NCBI RefSeq assembly: GCF_000372725.1
Contig: NW_005201391.1
Span: 174,736-238,735, forward strand
Direction: 5' to 3'
Source: Emiliania huxleyi CCMP1516
Lineage: Eukaryota
Length of the DNA stretch: 64,000 nt
Shown piece after piece: positions 8,819-61,276 of this stretch; positions within the stretch are counted from its first letter, which is position 1, and each line of letters begins with the position of its first letter. A program made the translations under genes and the position numbers. The notes under the pieces are model-generated. The model was not told where the DNA came from. It ran no database searches and worked only from the letters and a program-made list of their open reading frames with translations.

Positions 8819-11800
8819 TCAGCTGAAGTCCTTCTTCTTGGCGTGCAGCAAATTGTGGATCGAGCCCTCGGCCTGCGCGCCCGAGGTGCGCTGCTGGAAG
8901 CGGAGCGTGCCGTCGGCGAGCGCGGCCCACAGCGCCTCGCACGACTGCAGGCCCATGTCCTGCAGCGAGTGGCGCAAGCCGGTAGAGAGGTACGGCAGGT
9001 ACCTGGTCACAGCCGGCGCGTGTGAAGAGGCGCTTTCCACAGCCGGCGGGTCGAGAGCCAGAGAGGCAGGCACCGCTTGAGCGATCCCTTGTCAGCAACG
9101 GCGCCCGAGACACCCTGCGCGACGCGGACGGCGGCGTCGGTGGAGAAGTAGCGGTCGGCGGAGGTGCCCTTGGACATGGCGTCGATCGAGCCCATGCCGC
9201 GGTACGTCTTGAGCCGCACCCCGTCCTTGTAGAAGTACTCCCCGGGCGCCTGGGGGGAGAAGGGGGGAGGGGGGGGAGTGAAGGGCCGCCGCCAAGTTAG
9301 TGCGCGCGTGAGTGTCCGTGTGCGTCGCTGCGTGGTGTGCGTTGGCGTTTGCTGTTTGTGCGCGCGCGCCTCGTCGGTGCCAGCCAGCATCGAGCCCATC
9401 ATGACGGCGGACGCGCCGCACGCGAGGGCCTTTGAGATCTTGCCGACGTTGGAGATGCCGCCGTCCGCCCAGCACGGCACGCCGTGCTTGCGGGCGTACT
9501 TGCAGACGTGGTAGACGGCGGTCGCCTGATGATGCGAGGGGAGACGGGCGGTGTATGGTGTGAGGAGGCGCGGGCTCGCAGGCGCCGGGCCGCGGCGGGA
9601 AGTCGGAGGGAGAGGGGGAGGGGGGGGGGAGGGTTGCCGCGCCTGCGGCCGGCCCACGGCCATCACCTCCTGCGTGGTGCAGATGGAGCCCGAGCCCATG
9701 CCGATGCGCAGGGCGTCGACGCCCCACGCGATCAGGTTCTTGGCCTGCGAGACGCACACGACGTTGCCTCCGACGACCTGCGGCGGCAAAGAGAGAGGGG
9801 CACTTGGAAGGGGCAGCACGAGCCGAGGCCGAACGGCAGCGAAAGGCGGAGCGGCGGGCGGGGCGGCCGGGGTGGGTGAGATGGAGGGCGCGGGCGTGGC
9901 GGGAGGGGGAGGGGTGACGCAGGCCACGCCGTACCTGCACGTCAGGGTGCGTGGCCTTGATGTGCTTGACCATCTCCTCCTGGTAGCGCGAGTTGCCCTG
10001 CGACGAGTCGATGACGACGACGTCGACGCCCGCCTCGACGAGCATGGCGACGCGCGTCTTGTCCTCGGGCCGCGTGTGGATGGAGGCGCCGACGAGGAGG
10101 CGCTTGGACGCGCCTGCAGGACGTGTCGCGGACGAGGTGGGGCGACGGCCGGCGGCGGTGCGGAGGCGGGAGAGAGGAGAGGATGGCGGAGGGAGGGGGG
10201 AGGCGGAAGGGTAGGGCGGGCGGAGAGGGAGGCATTGGGGAGACCGGGGGAGGGCAGCAAGAGGAGGAGAGGGAGGAGGCAGAAGGAGTGATGGAGGAGG
10301 AAGAGGCAGAGGGGGGGGGGGGAGGGGGGAGGGAGAGGGAGCAGAAGGCAGGGGCCGGCGCCGCACCCTTGGAGGCGTGCGGGTAGTCGCGGTTCTTGCG
10401 CAAGTCCCTGCGCGAGATGAGGGCGACGAGCTCGCCCGACTTGTTGACGACGGGGAGCTTGCCCTTCTTGGAGTCGGTGAGGATCTTGTTGGCCTAGCGG
10501 GGAGGGGAGGGGGGGAAGTAAGGGGGGGGCGGGGGGGGCGGCGCTGATGGGGAAGAGAGGGCGGGAGGAGGCGGGACCGGGGTGGGGAGAGGGCAGGAGG
10601 GGGAGCGGCCGGCGTGGCGCGGGATGGTAGCGGCCGCCTGCTCGAGCGAGCACCCCTCCGGCGCCGTGACGAGCTGCTGCGTCATCACCTCCTTGACGAC
10701 GGTGGATCGGTCCTGCAGAGGGGCGAGGGAGGGGGCAGGGTGAGGGATGGGAGAGGGAGGGGGGAGGGTCGAGGGAGGAGGGGAGACAGAGGTGGGGAGG
10801 GGGCAGGGTGGTGGGCAGAGCCGGGCGAGGGAGGGGACGGAGGCGGCGAGAGAGGGAGGCGGTGGGAATAGGGCGGAGCGGTCCTTGACAAAGTCGTGGT
10901 CGCGTGTGGCGACGAAGCCGAGCAGCTTGCCGCCGAGCTTGCCGGAGTCGGTGATTGGGACTCCGGAGAAGCCGTGCTTGTGCTTGATTGCGTCGACCTG
11001 GAGGGGGCGCGGCGGGGCGCGGGGAACGGTGGGGCGGCGGGGAGGGGAGGGAGCTGCGGGGAGGGGAGGGAGCGGCGGGGAGGGGGGGAGGGGGGGGAGG
11101 CTGGCCGAGGTTCGAGGGGGCTGCGGGACAAGCGCGCGTGGGAGAGAGAGGAGTGGCGGGGAGTCGTGGGGAAGGAGCGGAGGAGTGGCGAGAGGGGAGT
11201 CGGGCCGCGCGAGAGCGAGAGCGAGAGAGCGCGAGAGCAGGGGAGCGAGGAGGAGGGCTTGGAGGCGCCTCGGCGAGGGTCGCCGTCGGCGGGAGGCAGA
11301 ACGGGTCGAGGATGAAGCCGTTCTCGAAGCGCTTCACCTTGCGAACCTCGGCGCACTGCTCCTCCATCGTGTTGTTGCAGTGGATGATCCCGAGCCCGCC
11401 GTACAGCGCCATGTGGATCGCCATCTGCGACTCGGTCACCGTGTCCATCGGCGAGGAGACGAAGGGCAGGTGCAGCTTGACCTTCCTCGTGACATACGTG
11501 TCGAGGGTGACGTCCTGGGCGTCGAAGGTGATGTGGCCGGGCAGGATGATGTAGTCGCTGTACGTGTACCCGTCACGGCCGGAGAAGAGCTGCGCGGCGG
11601 AGGCGATGGCGAGTCGGTGAGTGCGGCGAGGGTGGCAGGCGAGGGTGGCGCGGCGTGCGTGGTGGTGGGAGTGACGGAAGGAGCGGTGGCCGGAGAAGAG
11701 CTGCGCCCTTGGCGGTTGCGCGGCAGCGTGGCGAGGGTGGCAGCCGGCGTGCGTGGGCCGCGCGCGCACGGGAGCGATGGCGAGTGAGCGCATATACACA

Positions 11801-12422: not shown

Positions 12423-12540
12423 CACTACGGAAGCTTTGCGGCAGATTGCATCCCCCCGCATTTTTCTTCATTTTGCCGCCTTCGTATCCCGGGCGAGTCT
12501 GCTGGTTGGTTCTCCTTGGTCGACTTCCAGGCCGCGCGGG

Positions 12541-14223: not shown

Positions 14224-15210
14224 ATCTGTACTGAACGGGCCAGCTAGCTGGTCTTTGAGTCAGCGCAATGGTCGCGCCGCCCTCGACTCAAGGGGCTGCC
14301 TTCCACCCGTAGCTGCTCAGGCCGGGGGAGGGGGAGAGGTCTCCTGTTCCGCGGAACGCGAGCAGGCCCCTCCTTGCCCGGTCTGTGATGCGGGGCGGTG
14401 GTCGTGCCATCGTCGCTTCGTACGCGCAACAACCCCGCCGCAATGGTCGCCGGCGCGCGACACGTTCCCGTCAGCAGGACTGTCCTCGCCGAATGCGTGC
14501 CGCCAAGGCGGGACGCACTCAGGGAGAGTGCAGACGGGACGCGGCTCGAGGGGCGGCTCCCGCGGAGGCACGACTGGCATCCGTGGCGCGGGGCTCGTCT
14601 TCGAAAAGTCGGGCATGGCTCTACCCGCAACTCTCTCGCTGACACGCGCACCCCGTCGACCTTACGATGGGCGCGCTGCGGTCGCACGCCTCCCAAGTCA
14701 TACGCCGCGGCGTGCGATCTAGATTCAGCCCACGTGCCTCCACTCGCTTACACTCATACAATGAATTGACATCTCCCACATGAGTGCGAGTTAGGGCTAG
14801 CAGTAGGGAAGGCAGCTAGCCTGAGAGGAGAGCGTCCATAGACACCTCACATGACCCCACACACGGTCTCGCCCATGCCTTGCGGCTGGCGGCGAGATTG
14901 CTAGAGGCGGAGCAAGCCTGCTCAAGCCTCACACGTTCGCACTTGTCGCCTGTCTGTGTTGTTGTGCTGTTGTTTGTTCTCTTGGCACCTTGGAGTGCTG
15001 GGGGGGGCGACAGGGAGAATGTGGCCCTGAGTTATGTGTACGCCAACTCAGGGTGTGTGGCAGCCAGCTGGCTGTGTGTCTTGACTCTTGTGAGCCTGTT
15101 TGTGTCTGAGTGTCGCTCGTGCGTGTCGTCATCATCTGTCTAGCGTCCACCCATACCGCGTTGGTGTCCAGTCCGAGCCTGGCTGTTCTTCACCTTTCTA
15201 CCTAACCTAA
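14224..15210 (+). mobile_element. Putative non-autonomous retroelement (hairpin-rich 5' part, microsatellite tail)
   Basis: Many inverted-repeat stems at 14240-14720; ends in the CTGTTCTTCACCTTTCTACCTAACCTA tail shared with 12223-12422; no convincing ORF. Confidence 0.35.
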
Positions 15211-20200: not shown

Positions 20201-21300
20201 GAGGGCGGTGGTGGAGACGGCGGCGGGGGTGAGGGAGGTGGCGGCGAAGGCGGGGGCGGCGAGGGTGGTAGCGAGGGGGGCGGCGGCGAGGGGGGCGGCG
20301 GCGAGGGCGGCGGCGGCGAGGGAGGTGGCGGCGAGGGTGGCGGTGGCGATGGCGGCGGCGACGAGGGTGGGGGCGACGAGGGCGGCGGCGGTGATGGCGG
20401 CGGAGGAGATGGCGGCGGTGGTGATGGCGGCGGTGGCGAGGGCGGCGGCGACGAGGGCGGCGGCAGCGAGGGCGGAGGGCTGGAGGGCGGAGGGCTTGAG
20501 GGCGGCGGCAGCGAGGGTGGAGGGCTGGAAGGCGGCGGCAACGAGGGCGGCGGGCTCGAGGGCGGCGGACTCGAGGGCGGAGGAAGCGAGGGCGGCGGGC
20601 TTGAAGGCGGCGGCAGCGAGGGCGGAGGGCTGGAGGGCGGAGGGCTGGAAGGCGGCGGCAACGAGGGTGGAGGGCTGGAGGGCGGCGGGCTCGAGGGTGG
20701 CGGCATCGAGGGTGGAGGGCTCGAAGGTGGTGGCAGCGAGGGTGGAGGGCTCGAGGGCGGCGGGCTCGAGGGCGGCGGCAGTGAGGGTGGCGGCAGCGAG
20801 GGCGGAGGGCTGGATGGTGGAGGGCTTGATGGCGGAGGCAGCGAGGGCGGAGGCAGTGAGGGTGGAGGGCTGGAGGGCGGCGGGCTTGAGGGCGGCGGCA
20901 GCGAGGGTGGAGGGCTTGAGGGCGGCGGCAGCGAGGGTGGAGGGCTTGATGGCGGCGGGCTCGAGGGCGGCGGCAGCGAGGGCGGCGGCAGCGAGGGCGG
21001 AGGGCTGGATGGTGGAGGGCTTGAGGGCGGAGGAAGCGAGGGCGGCGGAGAATCGGAAGTCAGGGTTCGAGTTGAAAATGAGGTGGCCACGAAGCACGAG
21101 AGCGCGTCTGGGCTTGAGTCGAAGCAGCATTCTGCACTCAGGCTCAAGCACGCCCTCTCGCTGATCCCAGGGAATGCACCGTCGCACGGTGACCGCGCTG
21201 ACGCGGCAGCTTTTAACTCCCTTGCGCATGCAGGTCGACTCTCTGCTCGTGCAGCGCTCGCCGCTGCAACGAGAATCGCCGGGACCCGGGCCCCTCGCAT
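17240..21300 (-). CDS. Secreted Ser-Pro4 (extensin-like) glycoprotein with trefoil domain, Cys-rich module and C-terminal VWD-like domain
   Basis: Signal-like [19 protein letters not shown]; trefoil-like [32 protein letters not shown]; ~2.7 kb of 15-bp repeats encoding [15 protein letters not shown] with two N-gaps; C..CC..C..C..C module; C-terminal [28 protein letters not shown]. Confidence 0.8.
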
Positions 21301-30769: not shown

Positions 30770-31310
30770 AAGCAATCGGGAGGAGGGCGGGGCCGGGCGG
30801 GCGCCCCACCGGCGGCTGACGCCCGACGCACAAGTCTCAAAGCTGAGATTTTCGCGCTAGTTCTCGCCCTTACCGGCGCTCGCGCGGCATTGGCGTGGTA
30901 CAGTTGCCTAGACAGTACACAGAGAAAGTCACAGCAAGGAACCTTCTAGGCTTAGAGCCCTAGAGAGGGCCGTGTAGGAACCTTCTAGGCCTTAGCGCGC
31001 CCGCGCGCCGCTTACACGTTAAATCGAGGAGGTATGTATACACCCATGCGTTGGCCCATGCGGGCCATGGGCCTGCATGTGTGGGGCCATATCGGCAAGG
31101 GCATCGCGCGCATGTTCGCGCGAGGCGCCGGGGCATTGGCCATTGCCCCGCGCTGCTACGCCGGCCTTTTTACCGCGTAGAGCCGTGTAGCCTGTGTAGC
31201 CTCTAGTAGAGCCGTACGGCCCAGATGCGCCATGGCGGCAACCGGCATGGGCCATATGGTTATCATATGCGCCAGACATGACGCGAGAAGCAAAGACATC
31301 AGACATGGCG

Positions 31311-34300
31311 TCACTCGACGAAGTGCGCGAGCTTCTCCTTCTCCTTGCGGAGAAATGCCACCTCCGCCCGCACCACCCCGCGCGCCCCGTCGACTGTCAT
31401 GTTGTACCGCTGCGCTAGCTGCGGGTATGTCCACTCCCGCCCGTCCTCGAGGCCTGCAGGGGAGGAAAGCGGAGAGGCTGCGGCGTGGAGAGGCGGAGGG
31501 TTAGGTGGGGCGGGTGGGCCGGCAGGTTAAAGAAGAAAGGGGCGGGGGGCGGGAGGAGGCCCGCAGGGGGGCGTCCTCCGCACCGTACTTGAGCCTCGCC
31601 ATTGTCGCGCGGCGCGGGTCTCGCGCCCGCTGCGTTCTCCGCAACGTCGACGCAAACTCGTCCGCCTGCAGCAGCCGCTCTGCGCCGGATGCGCCCCCCG
31701 CGCGATTGGCGGGCAGGCGGAGGGCGACGCGGTCGGCGAGGGTGGGCACGCGCGCGCTGCCTATGGTCATGAAGGCAGCAGCGTCTGAGGCGAGGAGTCG
31801 GTGTCGAGCAGCGTACTCCGAGCAGCGCGTAGGTGCAGGGTCCACGCATACAGTGAGGACAGCTGGATCCAGCCGAGTGGGTGTCCTCTCGGGTGCTAGT
31901 CGGGGTGCACGGCCGCAGTCTGCTCTCTAGCACGCGGCTGCCTCCCCCGCCAACGACGAGGTGGGGCGGGTCGGCCGCGTCGAGCGAGAGGGTCGCCGAG
32001 TTTGCAAGACCGGTGAGGGCCGCCTGCCCGGGAGAAGAGCCGGATGAGGCGCAGACAGGAGNNNNNNNNNNNNNNNNNNNNNNNNNNNNNNNNNNNNNNN
32101 NNNNNNNNNNNNNNNNNNNNNNNNNNNNNNNNNNNNNNNNNNNNNNNNNNNNNNNNNNNNNAGGTGCTCTAGCTGGTCTGAGAGCCCGTCAAGGACGGGA
32201 GTCAAGTCGATCGTCAGCATGGGGGGGGGGGGGGGCTGGGAGGCGGGGAGGCGGGCGCCCGAGTTGTCGACAGCTAGTCGGTACCGCGCCCTGCGGATCT
32301 GCTGCATGTCTTGCTGCAGCGCCTGGGAGGGGCGGCGAGGGGGCGGCGAGGGGGCGGCGAGGGGGCGGTGAGGTAAGAGACAGAGGCGGTGCGTAGCGAG
32401 TAAAGGGGGTTGCGGGGGGGGAAGGGGTGCGAGGACGGCTGGAGAGGACGGCGGCGGTGCTGCAGACGCCTGAGGCAGCCTCACGAGCCGCCCCTTGTCG
32501 CGGACGGCTCGCAAGACAAAGGCGCGGATGTGCCAGACGGCATAGGTGGAGAAGGCGACGCCGCGTCCGACGTCGAAGAGGCGCAGTGCGCGGAGGAGTC
32601 CCTGCGCGCCCTCCTGCAAAAAGTCGGCCTTCTCCATGACCGACGCGTCCCTCCAGTTCGGGATGACTTGGTTCACCTGCGGGGCGTGCCAGGGTCCGTG
32701 TCGTGGACATGTCGTGGACATGTCTGGGAGGAGGTCTCCAGTTCGGGCGTCTCTCGGAGATGTCTCGGAGGTGTCTCGGAGGTGTCTCGGAGGTGTCTCG
32801 GAGAGGTCTGCACCTCGCGGTAGATCAGGCCCTGGTTCTCGGCGAAGAGGCGGTTGTAGGCGGCTCGGCCTACGCCATGCCACACGCCAGAGGTCAGGGC
32901 AGAAAGGGGCAGAGAGTACAAGGGCTGCGGCGTGCGGCGAGCAGAGTCGAGTGGGAGGGGAGGGGCAGGGTCCGTGTCCTTGCATCTAGGGGGGGAGGGG
33001 CCAATAGACTCGCGCAGTCGGAACTCGACGTCGCTCATCGAGGGCGGCAGCATCTCGCGCAGCTCGGCGACGTCGCGAGAGGCCCACGGGGCGCAGACGC
33101 CGCTCGACTGGGGAGGGGAGGGTGGGTGGGGGGGGGGGGGGAGGTGGGGGGGTGGTGGGGGGGGGGGGGTTAAAGAAAGTCCCGGAGGGGGGGGAACTTT
33201 CCGGAAAATTTGGGAAGACTTCCGGAAACTTCCGGAAATTTCCGGAAAAAATGTGGGAATCCCCCGGGGAAACAAACCTGGGGGGGAACCCCAACCCCCC
33301 CCGCGGCGGTGGCGGAAGCAGCCGCCGCCGCGGCGGGTTTTTCCGTGTGGCCCATGCGGCTTAAGACCCCCTGCAGCGAGGGGGGGGGCCTTACCGTGGC
33401 GCCCGTCTTCTTCGGCTTCTTCGGCGGTTTGGGGGCCAGCTCCCTCCGCGCATTGGAAGCCTGCAAACGTGTCCCGGACATTTCCCGGACTTTTCCCGGA
33501 CCGGTGTCCCGGAAGGGTCCTGGACCTTTTTCGGTGTCCCCAAAGTTTCCCCGAAGTNNNNNNNNNNNNNNNNNNNNNNNNNNNNNNNNNNNNNNNNNNN
33601 NNNNNNNNNNNNNNNNNNNNNNNNNNNNNNNNNNNNNNNNNNNNNNNNNNNNNNNNNAAAAAAGCGCCGCAAAAAAGCGAGGGCATAGCTTTCTCTGAGG
33701 CGCATACAAAAAGCACGAAAAACACAGCTGAGTGGATCCGGATATAGGCTCCTTTGACAGATGAAGGAAGGGGGGGGGTGAAGGAAGGTGCGGGAGGGGG
33801 GGGAGCTTGCGGGAGAGTGTGGGAGGACTGCGGGAGACTGCGGGAGATTGCGGGAGAGAGTGTGGGAGTCCGCGGGGGAAGCAGACCTGGGCGGCAGCCG
33901 CAGCCGCGCCGGCGGCGGTGGCGGAGGCAGCGGCGGCGGCGGCGGGCTTGTCGGTGTGGCGCATGCGGCTGAGGACCGCCTGCAGCGAGGCGGGCGGCCT
34001 GACCGTGCCGCCCGCCTCCTCCGCCTCCTCCGCCGCCTCGGCGGCCAGCTCCCTCCGCGCATCGGACGCCTGCGAACGTGTCGCGGACGTGTCGCGGACG
34101 TGTCGCGGACGGGTGTCGCGGAGGTGTCATGGACGTGTTGCGGTGTCGCGGAGGTGTCGCGGAGGTGTCGCGGAGGTGTCGCGGAGGTGTCGCGGAGTGT
34201 CGCGGAGGTGTCGTGGAGGTGTGCAGAGGCGGCTGGGCCTTGAGAGGGCTTGGCGAGAGGTTGCGGCGGCGATGCCAGAAGCAGAGGAGGGGCGGAGCGG

Positions 34301-35066
34301 GAGGTGTCTCGGGCGTGCGCGGGAAGTGTCTCGGACGTGCCGCGCGCCGTCAGAAAGAACCAGGCACGCTGGACGAGGCGGAGGGTCGCCTATGGGGGAA
34401 GGCTCCCAGAGGGTTCCTGGAAGGTTCCTAGAAGGCGCGCTGGACGAGGCGGAGGGTGTCCTCGTTGCCGAGGGGCCGCGTCCGCACGGGGCGCGTGGGC
34501 AGGCCGGTCGAGGCCGAGAAGCCGCGCAGCACCGACGGCTCGCGGAGCAGGTGGTCTGCCGCAGCCGCAGCCTCGCGCTCGAGCAGGTGCAGCACGCTCG
34601 CATCCTCGAGCGGCGCTGCCTCGCCAGCCTCGAGGCGGTCGGCGGCGCGGGCGGTCGCCGCCGGGCCGGCGGGCAGCGCTGTGCCCACGCCGGGGAGCGA
34701 CGCCTCCCCTCCCGCCAAGAGCTCCTCGACGATCGCACCGTCCAGCCGCTGCTGCGAGGCGCGGGCGAGGTTGTCGAGTGGCGCAAAGGGATCGAATCCC
34801 TCGCGCGACTGCGGCGGCCGCTCCTGCTGCTGCGCCTCACGCATTTGCTGCTGCCCCTGCTGTGGCCCCTGCTGCTGCTGCTGCAAAATCAGCTGCCTCA
34901 CCAGCAGCTGCTGCCGCCTCTGCCGCCGCTCGGAGACCCACGCTCCAGGCGCCGCGGCGTCGCGGTCCTGGGTCGTGCGCCGCACGACATGCGGAGGAGG
35001 GCGGCGCTGCGTCGGCTCGACGGCCACCCCGAGCACCAGCGCGGCTGCGGAGAGCAGCAGCGGCAT
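31311..35066 (-). CDS. Nucleus-encoded plastid RNA polymerase sigma70-type factor, multi-exon
   Basis: Signal peptide MPLLLSAAALVLG. Region 2: RLFAENQGLI..DFLQEGAQGLLRALRLFDVGRGVAFSTYAVWHIR..RLVRLP. Region 3: PTERVAEFA-like segment. Region 4: RLKY|GLEDGREWTYPQLAQRYNMT. Stop 31311-31313. Two N-gaps fall inside. Confidence 0.88.
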
Positions 35067-44954: not shown

Positions 44955-47384
44955 ATGCCGCTCTGCCTGCTCTCTGCGTCGGTCGCTGGCACCGCGTCGG
45001 TCGCTGGCACCGCCTCGGCGGCCGAGGTCGCCGCCGTCCTCCAGCCGCGGCTCACCTTTGCTCCCGACGGGCTGCGCGCGGCCGAGGCGGCAGCGCAGGC
45101 GGAGGCCGCTGGCTCTGGCGTGGCGGCGTGGCAGGCCGTCGCCCGCACCGTGACGGCGCTGCAGCGGCTGGACTGCGGGCACGACGCGGGCGTCGACGGC
45201 GTCACCACCGCCAAGGAGGCCGAGCTGCTCAACGCGACCGAGGCGATACTCGACGCGGCGGCCGGCGGCGAGCCGCTCGCGATGTCGGCGCTGGGGCACA
45301 TGTACCTTCTGGGCGACCCGTGCTCGCCGAAGCGGAACCTGACGTGGGCGACGCACTGGCTCGAGGGCGCGGCCGCCGCCGGCCAGCCCTCCGCCCTCGC
45401 GATGCTCGGCTTTCTGAACGAGAGCCGCGCGCTGTCGCGCGTGTACAACTTCAGCTATGCCACGCCGGCCGCGCTGACGGCAAGGTACCCTCCGGCGGGC
45501 GGGGGGGCGTACGCGCAGGGGCGCGCCCTGTACGAGGCCGCCCTCACCTCGGGCGGCTCCGTCCTCGCCTCGCTCGCCCTCGGCTCCCAGTACTCGAACG
45601 GTTCGGAGACGCTCCCGAGACGCTCCCGAGACGCTCCCGAGACGCTCCCGAGACGCTTCCGAGACGCTTCCGAGACGCTTCCGAGACACTTCCGAGGTGG
45701 ACGCATCAGCTCCTGACAGCACTCACCGCCCCCGTGCCTCCTCCCCCCCAGGCTTCGCCGGCGTCGCCGCCTCGTGTCCCGCCGCCGCCGCTCACTACGA
45801 GGCTGCGGCAGCGGGCGCGATGGCGCAGCTGGACGAGAAGCGGCAGCGGACGGTCGAGCAGGGCTGGCTCGACTCGAGCAGCGAGGCGCGCACGCTCCTC
45901 CGCAAGCAGCCGGCCGCTGCTCGCGAGTCTGGCGTCGACCCCGCCTCTGTCGAGTACATGGACTACTGCGCGCACGTGGGGGACGTCGCCGGGCAAGTCG
46001 GGATGGCGCACCTCTACCACTCCGGCACGCACGGCGTCCCGCGCGACACGGCGGCGGCGGCGCACTGGTTCGCCGCCGCCGCGGCGAAGGGCGACCCGAT
46101 GGGCCACGCCAACCTCGGGCTGGTGCGGCTGCGGGCGGGGGACGGCGCGGGCGCGCTGCCGCCGCTGAGGCGCGCCGCCAAGCGGAGCGACCCGTCGGGG
46201 TGGGCCGGTCTCGGGTACGCGTACTACTACGGGCTGGGTGTGAGGCAGGACTACGCGCTGGCGGCCAAGGCCCTGTCCGCCGCCGCCCGCCTCGGCCACC
46301 TGGACGCCATCTTCAACCTGGGCGTGCTCGCGCTGCGCGGCGAAGGGATGGAGCAGTCGCTGCACAAGGCGGAGCGCTTCTGGCGCGTGGCGGCCGACTT
46401 TTCGCACCCGATGGCGCAGTACTACATCGGCAGGATGAAGGCGCGCGGGCTGGGCACGCGGCGCGACTGTGAGACCGCCCTCTTCTTCCTGCAGCACGCC
46501 GCCGCCGCCTGGCCCGCCGGCAACGGCTTGCTCGAGACCGGCCTTGCCGCCCACGAGGCGGACCGGCCGCAGCGCGCCCTCGTGCACTACCTGCTCGGAG
46601 CGCACGCGGGCCTCGAGCCGGCGCTGCACAACGCGGGCTTCCTGTACGCCGAGGCGATGCCGCGGCGGCAGCCGCAGCTAGCCGCCTCCTACCGCGGCGC
46701 GGCCTCCGAGTACTTTCGGCGCGCGGCCGTGCTCGGCTCGGTGGACGCGTCCATCCGGCTCGCCCTCGTGCTCTCCCAGGACCTGACGGCCGAGCACTCT
46801 GCGAGCTCGTGGAGGCTCGCCAACGAGCTCTACGCGGAGGCGGCGCGGCACGGCTCGGCCGACGCCACCTGGCACCTCGGCTACAACTACCTCAAGGGGC
46901 GTGGCCTTCCGAAGGACTGGGCACGCCCCTCCCCCCTCTGCTCCTCTCCGACATGGCTCGGAGCCTGCCCGGAGCTACCCGGAGCCTTCCTGTAGGGGCG
47001 CGCATGGGCGCTGATGCGCGACGGCGGGATGCACTCGCGCTTCGCCGAGCTGCGCGGTGCACGAGCGTGCCCGAGCCTTGCGACCCCTCTCCTCCCTCGC
47101 CCTCTCCTCCCTCGCCCTCTCCTCCCTGCTCTGTGGCGGCTCGATGCCAGCAGCCCTCACTCTCTCCCCGCCGACCCGCTGCAGGGCCCGAGAAGCTCCT
47201 CTTCTCGCTGCTGCGCGCCGTCTACGAGGCTCGCGTCTTCATCGTATTTGCGGCGCTCGGCTCCTTCGTCCTCGCCACAGGCGGCAAGCGCGCCCCCGGC
47301 TTTGGCGCCGGCGCCGCCGCGACCGCTGTCTGGCACGAAGACGACGACGCCGCTGCAGACGACTTTGACGAGTTTGACGACTGA
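44955..47384 (+). CDS. Sel1-repeat membrane protein (SEL1L/HRD3-like, ERAD)
   Basis: Signal-like start; many Sel1 repeats (ALGHMYLLG, AAHWFAAAAAKGD..NLG, LGYAYYYGLGVRQD, AIFNLG, RRDCETA); C-terminal TM VFIVFAALGSFVLA followed by an acidic tail; spliced. Confidence 0.85.
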
Positions 47385-47914: not shown

Positions 47915-48080
47915 TTGCGTCTCAAACCTCGCAGCGGCGGTGGATGAAGGCACGGCGGCGTGGGCGTTCAATCGGCGAGCGATCGGCTTTTCGTTCACCG
48001 CCAATTCTTTTATTCGGTGTACCAGGTACCTGTTCTCGAGGTTCTCGAGGTGGATATCCTTTGGCCGCGTTGGGTAGCGA

Positions 48081-48202
48081 GGATTGGTGTGACGCGATCC
48101 ACGGAGGCGTGTTTTCTGACGGCCGACCGTCAGTGCACGGAGTTGCCCCTTCTCCGACTGCCCCGCCCGGCTAGTTCACGAGTTTCGCGGGAGTGACCCC
48201 AG
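48081..48202 (+). repeat. Dispersed ~120-bp repeat, second copy at ~53779-53895
   Basis: GGATTGGTGTGACGCGATCCACG..TTCTGACGGCCGACCGTCAGTGCACGGAGTTGCCCCTTCTCCGACTGCCCCG..CTAGTTCACGAGTTTCGC.GGAGTGACCCCA is near-identical at both loci. Confidence 0.85.
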
Positions 48203-50006: not shown

Positions 50007-53000
50007 TCAAGCGTCCGGGAAGACGCCCAAGAAGGTTGCGTCCCCCACGAGCGGGGGCATCGGGCTCTCCTCGACGATGGGGGCGGGCGCCTCCGTCGGC
50101 GGCGCGAGCGTGGGCGTGGCGGCGGCCGCGGCGTGATCGAAGGCAGTCCGCGCCTGCGCGAGCCGGCCCACGCCGGTCCAAAACTCGTGCAGCATGCCGC
50201 CCTCCATCTTCGCGTCGCTAGTCAGCGCGATCGCAGTCAGGACGAGCATGGCGGCGCGCCCCGCCTCGACGGGCGGCTCCAACGGGCCGAGGTGAGGCCC
50301 GAGCCGCCGCCGCCTCCGGCGCGCCGCCTCCGGGACCTTGCCCAGCGGCGCACGCACGTTGCGGAGCAGCGAGCGCGCCTCGAAGAGCGAGTACGTGCCG
50401 GCCTGCATCGCCCAGCAGAGCGCGCCGAGGCCGCTAAGGCCCGAGAGGGGGGGCGCGTCCGCCGCCGTCCAGCCCGTCAGCACGAGCCACAGCCACGTGA
50501 GCAGCGCGGTGAGGGCAACGTTGCCGTGCTTCCGCTCCGCCTCGACCCGCCACGCCGCCTGGTCGCTCGCGTCGTCGCTCTGGATTAGGGACCATGGCCA
50601 GGGTACGCGCCCCGCCCAGTAGCGCGTGTCGCTGCTCACGCCGCTGTCTGCCGCCGCCATGGCCTCGAGCGTCTCGCTCGTCTCGCGCCGCGCCGGCCGC
50701 CAAGTCGCTGCCTCGAGGGGACCGAGGACGTCCCCGTTCTGCAGCGCGTAGTCGGCGCGCACGAGCCTCCCGTTGACCACCGCCCGCGCCAGCGCCTCGC
50801 CGGGCGTAGGCCCGCCGCCGGCCGGCAGCGAGCGGAGGGCGGCCTCGACCGTCACGCCAGCCTCGAAGGAGAGGACTGTGCCGTCCTCCTGCGACGCGAG
50901 CACGCGCCGCGCGCGCAGCGCCGTGTGGACACGGCCGATGGTGTGCTCGGCACGCGACACCTCGCCCGCCCCCGCCCGCCGGCTCGCGCGCCGCACCAGC
51001 TGCTTTGGCCTGGCCGCCCCCGCCGCCCCGGCCGCCGGCGCGGCGACCCTCGGCGTTGCGGCACTCGGCGTCGTGGCGGGAGCGGAAGGCGGAGAGTAAG
51101 CTGGATCGGCGCGGCCGCCTCGGCCGCCGCGGGGCTGGCTCACCTCGACTCGGCACGCTCGGCCGCGCACCTCTCGGCCGGTCAGCTCGCGACACGCAGC
51201 CGCCGCGTCGCTCGCGTCAGCAAAGCTGACAAACCCATAGCCGCGGGAGCGTCCCGTCTCGCGGCTGGTGGCGACGCGGCACTCGGTGAGCCGCCCAAAC
51301 GGGGCAAACAGCTCCTGCAAGTCGCCCTCGGTCACGTCGAAGCTGAGCGAGGCGACGAAGAGCTTGCGGCGGTCCGACTCCGGCCGGCGCGGCGAGCGAG
51401 ACGCCGCGCCGGCCTCCACCTCTCGCGGCGCGGAGCCACCGCCGCGGCCACCGCCGCGGCCACCGCCGCCGCCCTCCGCCCTCTCGCTGCCCTCGCCTGC
51501 CTCCGCCCCGCCGTCGCCGCCAAAGAGGCGCCGCTCCTCGGCGACCCGCCGCTTGACGGGCGAGCGGCGCGGCTCGCCGAAGCCGGTCGTCTGGTCGAAG
51601 CCGAGCTCGCGCTGCCAGACCTGGTGCGCCGCGTCGCGGCGGCGGTCGTCCGCCTTGTACAGCCAATGCGCCGCCGAGCCGTACTCTGCCTGGTGGTGCA
51701 TCTCGGCGGTGCGCACCTGCACCTCCGCCTTGATGCCGCGCACCAGCGCGCACGAGTGGAGGGAGCGGTAGCCGTTTGGCTTCGGCGAGGCGATGAAGTC
51801 CTTGAGGAGCGCGCCCTTGGCCGTCGAGGCGACGGGCAGCGTCTTGTGCACCGCCTCGAGCACGCGGTAGCACAGCAGCGCCTGCCGCGCCTCCCAGTCC
51901 CGCGCGCTCATCCGCTCCGGCCGGTGCCCGTCCGGGGAGAGGGGCCGCGTCTCGGTCGGCATCACCACCAAGCGGAAGGCGAGCAGGTCGTCGAGCCCGT
52001 CGACGCTCTCCAGCCCCTTGCGCTCCATCTTGCGCGCCACAGAGACGAGGTCCTTGATGCGCGCGTGCACCCGGATCCACTTTGTCTGCCGCTGCAGCAG
52101 CGGGTCGGACGCCAGCGCCGCCTCGATCTGCCCCTCCGCCTCCTCGAGCGCCGGCCGCGCGCGCTCCGTCAGGTCCGCCAGCGCAGAGGAGAGGGCGGCA
52201 TACTCGGCAGGCCTCCCCACCGAGAAGGCTAGGATCTCGAGCTCCGTCTTGAAGTACCTGAGAGGCGGGCGTGGCAGGGTGTGCGCCACCGTACTGCTTA
52301 GCGCGGCATTTGGAGGGGCTCCAGGGAGAGGAGTCTCGCACCACATCCCGAGCCGCTGCGCGAGCGGGATGAACACCTCCTCCGTCTGCTGCGTGAAGAC
52401 GTCGCGCCGCTGCAGCAGCGCGCGCCACTCGGCGGCGTCGCCGCCGCACCGCTGGAAGGCGGCGCACGCGGCGCCGCTGTCGAGCGCACACGCGCTCAAG
52501 CAGCCGAGCGCGCAATCCGAGCGGCGAGGCGCGGCGGCCAGCTCGTTGACGCCTTACGGGAAGGCTCCGAGAAGGTTCAGAGAAGGTTCCAGGTGGCGAG
52601 GCGCGGCGGACAGCGGTTGACGCCGAGCTGCTGGCCGACCATCGCGCCGTACAGCTCGCGCATCGAGACGAGGCGCGACGCGAGCGCGATTGCAATCGAG
52701 CGAGGGTCGTCGCAGCCGGCGAGCATGATCTGGCACTGCCGCTCGAGCTGCTCCGCCCGACTCGCGCCGAGCTCGCCCCCTTCTTCTGCCACGCCGGCGC
52801 CAGCGCCGCCGTCCGCACCCTCGGCGGCGCGCTCGAGCCGCGCCGAGAGGCGCCATACCGTCGAGACGCCGCCGCCAATCTCGTCGATGGCGGCGGCCGC
52901 CTCCTCTCCGAGGATGGCAGTCAAGTCCTGCGCCGCCACGCCAACCTCCGCCTCGCGCAAGCCCGCCAGCATCGCAGCCTCGATGACCTCTCCGTCGGCC

Positions 53001-53404: not shown

Positions 53405-54616
53405 GCTGTTCCCAGGGACTCGCGCGACACCTCTCGGCACCCCGAGGATTTTATTTCTTTGTGGGAGCGCGCCTTCTTTCGATCGTTTGAAGAAGGCCGG
53501 TACTACTATCGGGCCACTGGTAGGATTTTTGTTTCTTTTTCGGTCCCCGCGCGTAGGACAACAACAGACGCGCACATACATCATTGCACACCTGCCTTCC
53601 TTGGCGGGTGAGGGTCGTAAGAATCCAGACAGAGAGAGATTTTTAATTAGCAATACCATTATGTGATGTTAGAGAGGTGGGTTAAGAGGGAGATGTGCGC
53701 GAGCTGCGGGACCGCCGGGACGGCGGGCGGGTGATTCGCCACTTTTGGCCACTTTTGGCCACTTTTGGCGACTTTTGAGGATTGGTGTGACGCGATCCAC
53801 GCAGGCGTGGCTTCTGACGGCCGACCGTCAGTGCACGGAGTTGCCCCTTCTCCGACTGCCCCGGCTAGTTCACGAGTTTCGCAGGAGTGACCCCATGCGT
53901 CAAACCCGAGACCTAGCGCGGGTGGGTTGGAGGGGGCTCGCTGCAAGGAAGGGCGGTGTAAGAGGCCGATCCCCGCAGTCCGCCCCGTTCCTCCCCATCG
54001 GGCCGCGCGTGAGCGGCCTCGCCTCGCAGATTCGTTTTTCGCGCCTGGGTCAGGCGCGCGGGGCATCCCCCGGGTCGCTCGACCAGCGATCCGAAGAGTG
54101 GCCGCTATGCGAGGGACAGAGCGGGGCCCCCGGGGTACGCCTCGTCCGGCCCCCTCCGAGGGGGGAAGGGAATTGCGGGGTCCCCACGGGCGCCTCAGTT
54201 CGGCCCTCCCGAGGGGGGGAGGGGAGCAAGGGGGTGGGGGGGTCGGGGCGGGGGGGAGGGGTCTCGGATTTCGTTCTCGACCGACCCATTGGTGCAAGAG
54301 GACTACATTTCACCTCCTCCCGAAGCGCTGCGACGCACGGTCACGCAGCCTCATGGCCGTGCACTCAACCGGTCGTTCGAAGCACAGACAGCGTCAGCCC
54401 ATGGCGCCCTGAGATGCACACACACGCGCGCGCGCACACACTCACACACGCACGCACACACACACACACACAGATTGAGAAAAGAATTTAATTAAAACAA
54501 CTCTCTCTCACAGCAGTCAGGCGACACAGGTGCGGACTGTAGAAAAGAATTTTTGCGCCGGTCTAGTCGCGACCCGGGGGGGGGGAGCGGGAGACTAACC
54601 TGAGGCATATATATAT

Positions 54617-55033
54617 ATGTCGCGCGCCGCCAGCGCCGCGACCTCGATCTCCTTGCGCTGCCCGATCTGCTGGGACACATTCTGCTCGCCGGTGCTGACG
54701 CCCTGCGGGCACCGCTTTTGCGAGGCATGCGTCAAGACCGCACTCACAGTCAAGAAGGAATGCCCGTCGTGTCGCCAGCCGGTCAAGTCGCACCGCGCGC
54801 TTCGAGTGGACACGGCATTCTTTGCAGCGACCGAGTCGAGCGGTGTGCGGTCGGCGGTGGCCGCCCCACTTCTTGACGAGTGCCTCGCCTCCTGCGATGC
54901 CGAGTGGAATTGCCGCGGCTGCACTTTGGCTAATCCCGCGGCTGCCGAGCGCTGCGCGACGTGTCACGCTCGCCGGCCTGCTCGCGCGACGTACTCTCTG
55001 TTGCCGGCGCGCAACGACTCTTGCGAGCCGGGC

Positions 55034-55074
<41 letters not shown>

Positions 55075-56231
55075 GCTGACACGGCCGGGCGCGCCGCTCG
55101 CCGCTGCCGACGCCGTCGAGGGGGCTGCGGTGGCGGTCTACTTCTCGGACGTGTCGCGCTGGTGCCGCGGCTCGAGCGTGTCCAAGACTGCGACGGGGAG
55201 GAGCTGCTCTTGTCGACCCTCTCCCCTCCCTCCCTTGTAGGTACCGCGGCGAGGTGGCTTCCGTCAACAACGACGGCACCTTTGGCGTGGGGCGTACGAG
55301 CTGTGAAGAGACGCTGTGTTCACACCTGCAGCTGTGAGCAGGCACCTTTGGCGTGGCGTACGAGGACGGCGACGAGGAGGAGGCGGTGCCGCTGGCGGAG
55401 CTCTTTCATCCAGCGGCTGAGGCTGGGAGGCCCGCCCACTCCGACGAGCAGAGGCTGACGGCGGCCCGAGAGAGGTGTGTGTCCGAGACCACGTCGCACA
55501 TTATACTATGTGGTCGCGCAGTTGGACCAACCGATGCGCCGGGCTTCGAGAGCGAGGCGGCAGACGCCGACAGTGGGGTTTCGGCTCGCGGGACGTCGTC
55601 AAGGAGACGACTTGTCGGCTGGCGGACGGGTTATCGAGGCCCCTCGTGGACGGGTTATCGAGGCGTCTACAAGCATGGGAATAAGTACCGCGCGCGCCTG
55701 GACGTCCCGGGCGGGGAGGGGGAAGGGGGAGGGAAGTCCCGCTACGTCGGCAGCTTCGACACGGTCGAGGAGGCGGCAGCGGCGCGGGCTGCGGCCGCTG
55801 AGGAGCAGCGGCGGAGCGATGAAGCTGCGCGCGCGCCCAGGCTGGCTCGGCAGGCGGAGGCGGCACGCCAGCAGGCCATAAGCGAGGGGCTGCAGCTTGA
55901 GCCGTCGAGCTCGAACACGAGCACAGGCTTCCGCGGCGTGGTTGTGTATGACGCGGGCAAGCGCTCACTCAGAACGTGCTACCGCGCTTACAATGCCATG
56001 CATTGGCAACATCGCGGGGCGGACGACCATGCTGGCCAGAATGCACAATGGATCTCGGGCACGTTTGAGACGGTGGAAGAAGCCGCGCTCGCTTACGCGC
56101 GTAGCCGCGCGATGGCCAAGATCGCGAAGCAGGGGCAGGATCGGAGGTTCAAAAGCTGTAAATCATATTGGAGGGGTGGGGGTGGGAGGGGCGGGGGTGG
56201 GAGGGGCGCTAAAATAAATGGACGTGCGTAA
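54617..56231 (+). CDS. RING finger + RanBP2-type zinc finger + polyQ + Tudor-like + two AP2 domains
   Basis: CPICWDTF..PVLTPCGHRFCEAC..CPSCR; WNCRGCTLANPAAAERCATC; polyQ run; SRW|YRGEVASVNND|GTFGVAYEDGDEE after removing introns 55162-55240 and 55276-55341; TGYRGVYKHGNKYRARL..YVGSFDTVEEAA and TGFRGV..GTFETVEEAALAYAR. Confidence 0.85.
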
Positions 56232-57657: not shown

Positions 57658-60600
57658 TCACGTCGCCGCCCCACCCACCTTGTCTTGCACGGCACATGCG
57701 ACGGCCTGGCAGCGCGCGTCGTTCGCGCTCGCAACCGCCACCGCCGCAGCCGCGGCGGCACCCTCGACGTTGCGGCGCACGGGCGGGAGTGGAGGCATGG
57801 CGAGGCGCGGCGCGGCGTTCCACGGTGGGTCGGCGCTGGGCCGCGCCACCGCCGCCGCCGCTGCCGCTGCCGCCGCCGCCGCCGACGCCACCGACGCCGC
57901 CGCCGCCGCTGCCTCGAGGCCCATGGGGGGGGGCGCCTGGACGCGAAGTGCGCGGTCGGGGTCACGGGATTGTGCAGTGTGCTCACGGAATCGCGTGGCT
58001 GTGAGCACAGCTCAAGACGGCAGGTGGCAGTTGGGCCCTTCTGTGCGTGTGCCCTCTCGAGAGCTTGTTGGAATGCACGCATCTGCATTCCGGAGACAGC
58101 ATCTAGGGGCGGTCCGCCGGCGTACGCAGTGGCGGCATCGCGTCGGGCGGGGACGCTCCCGGCCCGCGGCTCTCCTACATCGCAAGGTTGGGGGGGAGGC
58201 TCTCGGGAGGCGTCCGGGAAGGGCCTGGAGGAGGCTAGCCGCCCGCGGCTCGCCTCGAGCCCCCGCCCGCTGTTTGGCAGCGTCGTGTTTGGGAAGACCT
58301 GAGCAATGCCGCAAGCGCTCCGACGGGAGCCGAGACGGCCGAGATGAGATGCCATGCGTCGAGATGACAGACGAGAGAAGCCGGGAGATGCGCCGAGATG
58401 CGCCGAGATGCGCCGAGATTAGCCGCGCCCGGAAGATGCCGCTCGCCGGCGACGCCGACACGGGGACCGCACAGCGCGAGGCGACGAGCAGCCGCTGCGG
58501 GGTGCCGGGAAGGACGGAGAGCGTGGAGTCGACGATCAGCGGCGTGGCGGCGCCGCTGACGGCGACGCGATGCACCACGCGTGCCGCGCATGCCGGGGCG
58601 TCCACTGCGCTGCCGCTGCCCGACGCGGCGGCGAGGAGGGCGCGTGCGGTCTGCACGAAGGCAACGTGCTCGTCGGCGTGGAGCACCCGCAGCAGCGACA
58701 CGCCCGATAGCTCGGCGGGCGAGAAGCCGAACGGGCGCGGCGTGAGGCAGCCGGAGATTGCGAGGTCGGGCTGCACCACGAGCACCTGGCGCGAGATTAG
58801 GCGAGATTAGGCGAGATTGGCAGAGATCGACTCGAGAGTGGCCGAGGTGGGGCGCTGCGCCGCAAGCACACCGAGCAGCCCGTCGCAGCGAGCACCTCGA
58901 GGGCGGCGGGAGTGATGCCCGACACCGCCTCACCGCCCGGGTGCGCGCCGCTGGGCAGCAGCTGCTGCCGCCCCCCTCCGGCCGGCTTTGGCGGCGCGCG
59001 CGGCGGCGGAGGGACGGCGGCGGCGCCGCTCACAGCGTGCGCCCCGGATCGCTGCCGCACCAGCAGCCGCACGTCCGAGCTTTGCGCGTCGGGGCGCTCG
59101 CCTAGTGGACATGTCTCGGCCATGTCTCGGGCATGCCATGTCTCGGGCATGTCTCGGCCATGTCTCGGCCATGTCGGGCGCGGTCCAGAGTGTGTCCTCC
59201 GTGTTCCGCATCTGAGGAGCCGCTCACGCCGTGCGCGCGTGCGCTTCCTCCTCCTCCTCTCCTCCCACTACTCCTACTTCTTCCGCATCTGGGGGGCGCT
59301 CGCCGCGAGTGCGTCGGCGTGCGTCGACGTGGATGGGAGGCGAGGTGAGGCAGGCGAGGGCCTGGGCCTGGTGCAAAGAGGGGTGTGCGTGGTGGAGGCA
59401 GGGGGGCAAGGGTGAGGGGTGTGTGGCAGAGGGAGGGAGGGAGGGAGGGAGGGAGGGAGGGAGGGAGGGAGGGAGGGAGGGAGGGAGGGAGAGGAGAAGT
59501 TAGATGGAGGGAGGGAGGGAGAGAGGAGCGGGGAGAGAGAGGAGGAGAGAGGAAGAGAGGGAGAGTCTAAGGGAGAGGGCCGACGTCCGAGGCGAGGTGA
59601 GGCAGGCGAGGGCCTGTGCGCCGCCCTCGCCCGGCTCGGCGCCCTGCAGCGGCGCGGCGAGGACGGTGACGAGGAGGTGGAAGGGGCGGTTGCCGCAGTT
59701 GAAGGACGTCTGCGTGAGCAGCAGCGACGAGAAGTTGGCCTCGAACAGCGCACCTGGAGAAAGCCGGGGGGGGGGGGGGGGGGCTTGAAAGGGCAAGGGC
59801 GTGTGCCCGGAAAAACTCGGCTCTTGGCTGGTCTCGTCTGAGCTCGGCTCATCTCGGGTGATCTCGGCTTGAGCTCGGCTGATCTCGGCTTGAGCTCGGC
59901 TGATCTCGGCTTGAGCTCGGCTGATCTTGGCTTGAGCTCGCACCCGAGGACGCGGTCAGCCGCTGCACGCAGTCGCCCGACAGGCCCTGCGGTAGGCAGC
60001 AGTGGTACTGGTGGGACTCGACGAGGCGGAGCGGTAGATGGGGCGATCGCCGCTCATGTTGGGGCGGGCTGTGTAGCGTGCCCTGCGGCGGTACAGGGGG
60101 CCTGCCTGGGCCGGGAAGGGGGCGGGTCGCACCTGGTCGTGCAGCTCCGAGTCTCCCGCAACCAGAGTGCCACATGAGATCATCGCGAGCAGCGGGCGGT
60201 CGAGGGGCACGCCGGCGCCGACGTCGACCGACACAAAGATGCGCGGCAGCGACCACTTCTTGTGCCACATCCAGCGCGACCGCTCGCGCCAGTACAGGAG
60301 AGGCGTCTGCAGCCGCACCGTCACCGTCAGGTCCGAGTCGCACTCCTGCCCCGTGATCACCGCGCCGCCCGGCATCGCCTTGAGCGGGCAGTAGCAGCGC
60401 GCCTGGGAGCACCGTGATGTTGCTGGTGCGGAGAGGGCATCGGGCAACGTGGCAAAGGCATGGGGTCAGCGGTGACGGAGGACGGAAATGTCTCGGAAGT
60501 GTCAACGCGCGCCCACTCAAAGGGCAAGTCGGCGTCGCTCGCCGCCGTGCTCGCGGCGGCGTCGGCGGTGGTCGCCCCGCCCGAATGCCCCGGCATCGGC

Positions 60601-60848
60601 ACAGGCGGCGAGGCCAGCTCGGCCATCACAACGTCGGCGCCCGGCCTCGGCGCTCCCGGAGGATCGGTGCCGGTGACGGTGGCGAGGACGGTCGGCTGCA
60701 GCGTTGGGTACATCGCTCGCTGCTGCGCCCCACCGGCGAGGGTGGCGAGGATCTCGCCGATCGTGATCTGCTGCCGGCTAGTCTCGGAGACCGAGTTGGC
60801 AGCGATCGCGGTCGGATCCTGGGGAGTGGAGCGGCATGTGGCTCTCAT
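57658..60848 (-). CDS. Multi-exon putative transcription factor: beta-rich (CudA/STAT-like?) domain + PAS domain
   Basis: Exons WMWHKKWSLPRIFVSV.., GLSGDCVQRL, FEANFSSLLLTQTSFNCGNRPFHLLVTV, LACLTSPPIHVDARRRTR|GERP; PAS-like LVVQPDLAISG..FGFSPAELSGVSLLRVLHADEHVAF. The 3' end is uncertain. Confidence 0.6.
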
Positions 60849-61276
60849 GAGCTGGTACGCGGCGCGATGCGTGGCGCCGAGTGGCGCGCTGTTGGGAGGG
60901 AGAGATCAGGAGGATTGGAGTTGGCGGAGGCACCTTGTTCGGTGAGGAGGAGGGAAGTGGCGACTGGAGAAGGCCGGTCGGCATCGTGTCGTTTGGGAAC
61001 CCTTTGCACACCGGTACACCCCCAAAAGAAAGAAAAAAAAGCCGCCCGGAGGAGGACTCTGCTGACATTCGTGTTTTTCGCACGAAGGCCCCGAAACTCT
61101 CGAAACAACTCGCAGCGCGCAGGTGTGTGTTCTTTTTGCTTGGCCGGACGTCATGACAGGGTAGGTAGGGTAGGTCTGGGCCCTCCCGTCGGTCGGGGTC
61201 CTCTCTTCACGCCGGAATTTTCCAGCAGAAAAAGAAAATTTCCGCCGCAATCACGATGTCAACCCTCCCCAAAGCC

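What the first reader, a model, noticed from the sequence alone, without database searches (positions are those of the whole stretch)
55162..55365. Introns whose 5' end copies the start of the next exon: signature of duplication-driven intron gain (RING-AP2 gene)
Seen: predicted intron 55276-55341 starts GCACCTTTGGCGTGGGGCGTACGAG and the next exon starts GCACCTTTGGCGTGGCGTACGAG. Intron 55162-55240 starts GTGCCGCGGCTCGAG and the next exon starts GTACCGCGGCGAG. Removing both restores a Tudor-like WYRGEVASVNNDGTFGVAYEDGDEE. The same pattern recurs in at least three other genes in the window (separate findings). Inference: introns arise by insertion of filler with duplication of 10-25 nt at a G|GY site, as in staggered-break repair. 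The upstream copy supplies the donor, which would explain the excess of GC donors in a GC-rich genome.
Basis: partly seen in the sequence, partly recalled or inferred. Interest (0 to 1): 0.78.

Follow-up and report, generated by a model that had tools for sequence, protein, structure and literature searches.

The report
Introns born with copied exon starts
In this coccolithophore alga many introns begin with a decayed copy of the exon that follows them, and several end in a short piece shared with introns of unrelated genes, which likely marks introns made by copy-and-insert events whose duplicated target site supplies the unusual GC and GA splice donors.

Summary
Observation exact. Intron 2 (55276-55341) sits in a 16-nt perfect direct repeat (23 of 25 nt matched); intron 1 (55162-55240) is spliced in 4 of 4 RNA runs laid; intron 2's joint was not seen directly. 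The pattern is general: in 17 introns fixed by transcript evidence, intron starts match their own next exon better than shuffled pairs (6.4 vs 4.5 of 12 nt, p=5e-5; p=2e-4 in the 14 from two unselected genes); the 3' side shows no excess. Other haptophyte orthologues lack these intron positions. The last ~42 nt of intron 2 resemble the last 41 nt of an IMPDH intron, and two more families of shared 3' ends exist. A published screen lists E. huxleyi as an Introner genome with the target-site duplication unresolved. Best reading: Introner-type insertions carrying the acceptor, with a long, variable, lopsided duplication supplying the donor. Plain break repair remains a rival. Not found in print in 10 searches; this scan noted single such introns in other genomes.

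The parts
54617..56231 (+). Host gene: RING finger, RanBP-type zinc finger, poly-Gln, Tudor-like module, AP2-like repeats; matches gene model EMIHUDRAFT_224927
   Evidence: open frame after removing both introns; Pfam RING E=6e-11, RanBP finger E=0.001, Tudor PF21743 only E=0.036 on P0002; AP2 label comes from a weak homologue's name, no Pfam AP2 hit
55162..55240 (+). Intron 1, GT-AG, 79 nt; first 10 nt match the next exon at 9 positions
   Evidence: RNA joint in 4 of 4 runs; repeat
55241..55275 (+). 35-nt middle exon
55276..55341 (+). Intron 2, GC-AG, 66 nt (donor inferred; rival in-frame GT donor at 55294)
55275..55300 (+). Upstream copy of the duplicated target (supplies last exon base and donor)
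   Evidence: D1 and D2
55341..55364 (+). Downstream copy of the duplicated target (G of the acceptor and start of exon 3)
55300..55341 (+). 42-nt 3' core of intron 2, family B; internal 8-nt direct repeat 31 nt apart
   Evidence: reciprocal best non-self hit with the IMPDH intron-9 core in 64 kb, both strands; z=7.7, 0 of 300 shuffles
9003..9073 (-). IMPDH intron 9 (71 nt): decayed duplication plus family-B core 9043-9003
   Evidence: junction from cDNA-like contig L001
12877..12950 (+). Candidate third family-B intron (74 nt) in a zinc-finger-like gene; ends in the same last 11 nt as intron 2
   Evidence: found by the two-member core model at only E=0.47; removal restores a frame; no RNA check
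52553..52623 (-). RelA/SpoT-like gene intron (71 nt, GC): about 29-nt duplication plus 42-nt family-A core
   Evidence: RNA record 18 of run X4; gene name is my reading of the translation, not a database call
34390..34460 (-). Sigma-factor-like gene intron (71 nt, GA donor inferred): 30-nt repeat at 90% plus family-A core
   Evidence: (z=9.5 with the RelA core); no RNA check; gene name is my reading
46921..46995 (+). SEL1-repeat-like gene intron (75 nt), family-A 3' end, little duplication left
   Evidence: z=6.1; placed by frame
59362..59613 (-). 252-nt intron in a 31-nt direct repeat (25 nt exact on the exon side, 5 of 6 upstream)
   Evidence: homologue P0250 carries one copy of the peptide
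59102..59303 (-). 202-nt intron, 11-nt exact duplication, family-C 11-mer repeats
10713..10883 (-). IMPDH intron 3: GA donor where the next exon also starts GA; 10 of 12 nt match

Best explanation
Many introns here start with a copy of the next exon's first 5-30 bases, and several end in a roughly 42-base piece shared with introns of other genes; they were likely made when such an acceptor-bearing piece was copied into a staggered cut in an exon, the duplicated target then likely serving as the splice donor. Shown: the duplication, its excess over chance, its lopsidedness (long after the junction, 1-6 nt before it), the shared 3' ends, absence of the positions in other haptophytes. Inferred: the cut opens just before a G|G[C/T/A] site on one strand and up to ~30 nt further on the other; new DNA copied from an existing intron end fills it; fill-in doubles the target; splicing from the first copy to the AG before the second removes exactly one copy plus the core, so the protein is unchanged. 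Only targets that read like a donor survive, so donors mirror GC-rich coding sequence (GC, GT, some GA). The youngest-looking introns are 66-75 nt (duplication plus core); later they grow by 10-11-mer and pyrimidine expansions and the copy decays. Whether the template is RNA or DNA is unresolved; I lean to RNA-primed copying because the duplication is long and variable and likeness is anchored at the 3' end.
For: Shuffle tests on 17 transcript-fixed introns: positions 1-12 6.41 vs 4.54, p=5e-5; positions 3-14 5.41 vs 3.66, p=5e-5; 14 introns of two genes not picked for the pattern p=2e-4 and 6.5e-4; 3' side p=0.06-0.36; phase-stratified p=5e-5 and 2.5e-4. Core families: of 666 pairs of intron ends the top three are RelA/sigma (z 9.5), IMPDH9/intron 2 (z 7.7), RelA/SEL1 (z 6.1), all aligned up to or within 6 nt of the acceptor; only 0.27% of window positions lie that close to an annotated acceptor. 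Three of the four best-preserved duplications are in 66-71-nt introns that also carry a family core. Orthologues in the haptophyte clade (100/97 support): L003 lacks 9 of 9 and L005 8 of 8 covered IMPDH positions while holding 2 and 1 introns elsewhere, with GT donors and no duplication (scores 0, 0, 2); P0138 aligns unbroken across 5 of 5 positions of the NAD(P)-binding gene; P0251 reads through the first three positions of the 57-61 kb gene (by eye). Gozashti et al. 2022 (PMC9860276, supplement rows) list E. huxleyi CCMP1516 with 653 Introner copies in 5 families, mean lengths 70, 70, 37, 37, 37 nt, TSD and TIR '?' in 4 and absent in 1.
Against: Families have only 2-4 members in 64 kb and are 67-80% alike, far from the near-identity of active Introners; short repetitive 3' ends could arise by convergence (branch-point or 11-mer expansion). 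10 of 17 transcript-fixed introns score under 6, and 10% of mismatched pairs reach 6. With the first 4 bases skipped, the gapped score in the 14 unselected introns is not significant (p=0.08). The longest exact duplication (59613) has a low-complexity filler with no family match. Intron 1's filler has no clear relative. No allele without the intron was seen: L040 holds IMPDH introns 8 and 9 and 8 of 8 viewed members of the P0001 cluster start after intron 2's stop. L003 and L005 could be partly spliced transcripts. No transposase or reverse transcriptase was tied to the cores. I could not match these cores to the published families.
Confidence: 0.5

Rival explanations
1. One reading: staggered double-strand breaks repaired by end joining with locally made filler; the shared 3' ends are convergent splice signals and 10-11-mer expansions, not copies.
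For: Same geometry is described for Daphnia neointrons, 33 repeats of 4-12 bp (PMC4202315, passages). Duplication-plus-spacer also occurs inside introns (19 nt at 11577/11688, 12 nt at 32651/32736), so the process is not limited to intron birth. Fillers of intron 1 and of 59613-59362 have no family.
Against: Family-B cores are not simple arrays yet align over 43 columns to the last base and share a ~30-nt internal repeat spacing; duplications are up to three times longer than in Daphnia.
Confidence: 0.27
2. Old introns whose 5' ends are overwritten: a break near the donor is repaired on spliced mRNA or cDNA, copying the next exon's start in behind the upstream exon. The duplication would then date a repair, not a birth.
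For: Explains the one-sided pattern and strong copies in long introns (59613, 252 nt). No presence/absence allele seen.
Against: Positions are absent from the other haptophyte orthologues examined; it does not explain shared 3' cores; three outgroup introns show no copy.
Confidence: 0.12
3. Classical MITE-type Introner with a fixed short target-site duplication and terminal inverted repeats; the long repeats are later accidents.
For: Donor co-option from the TSD is known for Symbiodinium Introners, and a Chrysochromulina family has 4-bp TSDs (PMC9860276, passages).
Against: Repeat lengths run from a few to 31 nt against 3-9 bp for DNA transposons; no inverted pair joins the ends of 5 of 6 introns examined, and the one spanning pair (7 nt) lies in exons or the duplicated tract; cores fold no better than shuffles (z -0.26 to 1.79).
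Confidence: 0.06
4. Artefact or chance: mis-assembly, or GC-rich donor consensus mimicking GC-rich codons.
For: The assembly has duplicated and low-quality stretches (5380-6460, 33130-33560); donors and exon starts share a G-Y-R-C bias.
Against: Shuffles keep that bias and are still exceeded; unspliced forms of both introns occur in independent RNA runs with their own variants and IMPDH intron 9 is identical in L040 (0 of 71 differences).
Confidence: 0.05

Closest known systems
Introners that co-opt the 5' splice site from the target-site duplication (Symbiodinium microadriaticum example; Gozashti et al. 2022, PMC9860276: passages and supplement rows seen)
   Same: Element carries the acceptor, upstream TSD copy gives the donor, mRNA unchanged, GC/GA donors; the same species is on their list.
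   Different: Their TSDs are 3-9 bp, often with TIRs; here the duplication is variable, up to ~30 nt, forms up to 40% of the intron, and no TIRs are evident. Their E. huxleyi families have TSD status '?' or none.
Intron gain during staggered double-strand-break repair (Daphnia; Li et al. 2014, PMC4202315: passages seen)
   Same: [quoted passage not shown]
   Different: Daphnia repeats are 4-12 bp, fillers mostly without source, gains polymorphic; here repeats are longer, one-sided, and fillers fall in families.
Tandem genomic duplication of an AGGT-bearing exon segment (reviewed in Yenerall and Zhou 2012, PMC3443670: passages seen)
   Same: Both splice sites can come from a duplicated AG|G site (10 of 17 upstream exons end in AG).
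   Different: There the whole intron is exon-derived and its 3' part copies the upstream exon; here the 3' side shows no excess and 7 of 17 need the acceptor A from the core.
Direct repeats near splice sites (Rogers and Bendich 2025, PMC11782384: abstract and passages seen)
   Same: 4-30-bp repeats at intron borders read as insertion scars.
   Different: Hand-picked imperfect repeats against a uniform-base null in 213 introns; no mention of Emiliania or haptophytes in the main text; no paired-shuffle test, no link to donor type.
GC-donor majority in E. huxleyi (Feldmesser et al. 2014, PMC4028052: passages and text of supplement 1 seen; figures not held)
   Same: 56-65% GC and up to 4% GA donors; their legends describe junctions that can slide by 1-9 nt, i.e. 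short repeats.
   Different: They attribute GC donors to genome GC content; the passages seen do not mention exon-start duplication.

Membership tests
Introner elements | Introns at unrelated loci share sequence | tested here: met
   three small families of 3' ends among 37 introns, z 5-9.5; likeness only 67-80% and limited to the last ~42 nt
Introner elements | High copy number with near end-to-end identity | not testable with these tools
   no genome held; published count is 653 copies in this species but not matched to these cores
Introner elements | Positions absent from relatives (recent gain) | tested here: met
   distant haptophytes only; sister species not available; no polymorphism seen
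MITE-type (DNA transposon) Introners | Fixed 3-9 bp target-site duplication | tested here: not met
   repeats of 10-31 nt in the six clearest cases
MITE-type (DNA transposon) Introners | Terminal inverted repeats | tested here: not met
   no end-to-end inverted pair of 7 nt or more bounding a core; no excess folding
Non-LTR-type (target-primed) insertions | Variable 7-30 bp target-site duplication (feature recalled, not from a call) | tested here: met
Non-LTR-type (target-primed) insertions | 3' ends conserved, 5' ends truncated | tested here: inconclusive
   family alignments end at the acceptor but families are too small
Non-LTR-type (target-primed) insertions | Partner reverse transcriptase or shared 3' tail with an autonomous element | not testable with these tools
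   genome not held
Staggered-break (DSBR) intron gain | Direct repeat at the borders with non-exonic filler | tested here: met
Staggered-break (DSBR) intron gain | Filler unique or captured from unrelated DNA | tested here: not met
   not met for intron 2 and the family-A and family-B introns; still possible for intron 1
Tandem genomic duplication | Intron 3' part copies the upstream exon end | tested here: not met
   p=0.06-0.36

The most novel reading that the evidence does not exclude
E. huxleyi makes most of its introns by reverse-transcribing the 3' tail of spliced-out introns straight into nicked exons: the tail brings branch region and acceptor, the long target-site duplication becomes the donor, and every new intron is a template for more. 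This would be a self-propagating, RNA-primed route of intron birth that also explains why this alga has mostly GC donors.
Probability: 0.2. Interest if true: 0.92.

Novelty: new variant of a known kind. Interest (0 to 1): 0.68.

Why it matters
Where new introns come from is an open question, and most documented gains have no traceable source. If the pattern holds genome-wide, one abundant alga would hold thousands of introns with a readable birth scar graded by age, a testable cause for its GC-donor majority, and a mechanism for Introner families that were listed but left unexplained. It also matters for annotation: a predictor that prefers GT can keep both copies, as the public model of this gene does.

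Tried and rejected
Hairpin explanation for the cores: none of 6 folds beat shuffles. Known RNA family in the gene: 3 hits, all below gathering score. Family-B pattern in viral contigs: 1 unrelated repeat-rich match, L042. An idea that a paralogous transcript keeps the intron copy's variant base was dropped: the aligner may have run through a mismatch. One RNA skip in the RelA-like gene (40 nt at 52890-52929 with an 18-nt gap) was dropped before counting because the frame is open there. Left out of the 20 frame-placed introns: three in the sigma-like gene (two at assembly gaps, one whose donor could only be chosen by likeness), the last intron of the 57-61 kb gene (two open frames), the last LpxD-like intron, and the genes at 1-1230 and 5150-8200. 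The 20 were placed by eye, not blind, so their p=5e-5 is secondary. An unbiased scan of exact repeats of 11 nt or more found 41, only 4 tagged as intron-like: exact repeats are common elsewhere, so only anchored, junction-fixed tests count. P0034's odd N-terminus might mark a shared first IMPDH intron (the one with no duplication) but also aligns as coding; not used. Literature: 10 searches; none listed a paper on this pattern in E. huxleyi. PMC2784329, PMC12130899, PMC11282704 and PMC9481584 (passages only) had nothing on it; supplements of PMC12130899 were not searched. The 2013 genome paper and the 2016 Introner paper were not held and may bear on novelty.

Full report
Setting. The window is eukaryotic, about 65% GC. 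The gene under the finding matches gene model EMIHUDRAFT_224927 of Emiliania huxleyi. No whole genome was held, so all statistics come from this window.

The observation. Coordinates and quoted words are exact, and removing both introns gives one open frame from 54617 to 56231. Intron 2 lies in a perfect 16-nt repeat that starts one base before the junction and continues, after a 2-nt indel, for 10 more bases; intron 1 lies in an 11-nt repeat with one mismatch. The first is far beyond chance (3e-8); the second alone is not (3.8% of mismatched pairs score as well). Intron 1 is spliced in 4 of 4 RNA runs laid. Intron 2's joint is not among the 15 of 26 joints shown. My inference is that the 16-nt repeat leaves a spliced-specific contig of only about 44 nt, too short to be called. 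Low depth inside the intron in two runs, an in-frame stop and a paralogous transcript with one copy favour the GC donor at 55276, but the public model uses 55294, so this stays open. The Tudor label is weak (E=0.036), and an orthologue-like protein, P0003, lacks the module.

Is it general? To avoid choosing donors by likeness I fixed 17 junctions from transcripts: 9 in IMPDH from a cDNA-like contig, 5 in an NAD(P)-binding gene from a transcriptome protein, 2 in a RelA-like gene and intron 1 from RNA contigs. Intron starts match their own next exon at 6.41 of 12 bases against 4.54 for other exons (p=5e-5); beyond the donor dinucleotide 5.41 against 3.66 (p=5e-5); in the 14 introns of the two unselected genes p=2e-4; the 3' side shows no excess. 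Stratifying by phase does not remove it. The signal is graded: 3 of 17 score 8 or more, 7 of 17 score 6 or more, several show nothing, and one stricter variant of the test fails in the 14 (p=0.08). All 17 upstream exons end in G and 16 of 17 next exons begin with G; donors are 8 GC, 7 GT, 2 GA, and the second base equals the exon's in 13 of 17. The G before the junction is also what a weak donor needs, so it does not by itself prove duplication. Twenty more introns placed by frame behave the same but were not placed blind.

Are they gains? Two loci in the haptophyte clade lack all covered IMPDH positions (9 of 9, 8 of 8) and have their own GT introns without a copy. P0138 aligns unbroken across all 5 positions of the NAD(P)-binding gene before running into non-homologous sequence. 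These are distant relatives, some may be partly spliced transcripts, and haptophytes such as Chrysochromulina may have lost introns. Among close strains no allele without an intron was seen. So the positions look lineage-specific; their age is unknown.

The filler. The last 42 nt of intron 2 have as best non-self match in 64 kb, both strands, the last 41 nt of IMPDH intron 9, and the reverse also holds; both end on the acceptor, and both carry an internal direct repeat about 30 nt apart. The RelA-like, sigma-like and SEL1-like introns share a second 3' end (z 9.5 and 6.1), and four more share a third, 11-mer-based one. A weak third member of the first family turned up at 12877-12950. The 11-mers lie in the sense orientation in all 8 introns with more than one (44 forward, 0 reverse), which selection for splicing could also cause. 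The cleanest cases are 66-71 nt: about 25-30 nt of duplication plus about 42 nt of core. Gozashti et al. 2022 list five Introner families in this species, two averaging 70 nt, with target-site duplication undetermined in four; that these are the same elements is my inference.

Mechanism. The anatomy fits a staggered cut whose two nicks lie just before the junction and up to 30 nt after it, filled by a copied acceptor-bearing core, with the first copy of the target used as donor (0.5). Plain end-joining with convergent filler (0.27), overwriting of old intron starts from mRNA (0.12), a classical MITE (0.06) and artefact (0.05) are the rivals. Long variable duplications, no terminal inverted repeats and 3'-anchored likeness are what target-primed reverse transcription would leave (established knowledge, recalled); no enzyme was identified.

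Novelty. Each ingredient is known: donors co-opted from target-site duplications, border repeats in new introns, GC donors in this alga. A pervasive, long, one-sided duplication tied to donor type and to shared 3' cores was not found in 10 searches, but the 2013 genome paper and the 2016 Introner paper could not be read. Earlier notes of this scan describe single such introns in a fungus and a euglenid; I did not test them. Verdict: real, new variant of a known kind, interest 0.68.

Noticed in passing
window 11577-11595 and 11688-11706 (minus strand, IMPDH intron 1): A 19-nt exact copy of the acceptor plus exon start lies inside the intron, 111 nt upstream: a duplication-with-spacer across an existing acceptor.
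   Followed up: partly
window 5380-6460 and 8035-9110: About 1.1 kb duplicated between two assembly gaps, including the IMPDH 3' end; likely an assembly artefact.
   Followed up: no
window 33130-33560: Degraded second copy of the sigma-like gene segment 33890-34115 next to a gap; looks like a low-quality read.
   Followed up: no
window 30936-31000: Outside any called gene, two copies of the family-A motif frame a 39-nt piece whose start resembles the bases after it, a miniature of the intron anatomy.
   Followed up: partly
window 12220-12430 and 15175-15210: An 11-15-nt motif that reads like a splice donor on the minus strand recurs four times in non-coding DNA.
   Followed up: no
window 55087-55400: RNA contigs show several paralogues of the Tudor-like module, while P0003 has RING-zinc finger-AP2-like parts without it: the module seems shuffled in.
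   Followed up: partly
window 57900-60960 (minus): Seven-intron gene whose second exon matches an unnamed family (70 representatives; no Pfam hit for P0250) with a conserved Trp/His/Lys-rich motif.
   Followed up: no
window 18000-21050 (minus): Long 15-nt-period proline/serine-rich repeat gene broken by two gaps.
   Followed up: no
window 53777-54260 and 48070-48200: High-copy repeat with deep, variable RNA cover upstream of the RING gene.
   Followed up: no
window 55299 and 55320: Strain variants inside intron 2 in 3 of 4 runs; in X1 the unspliced form is deep (177 against 275 in exon 3), in line with reported intron retention.
   Followed up: no
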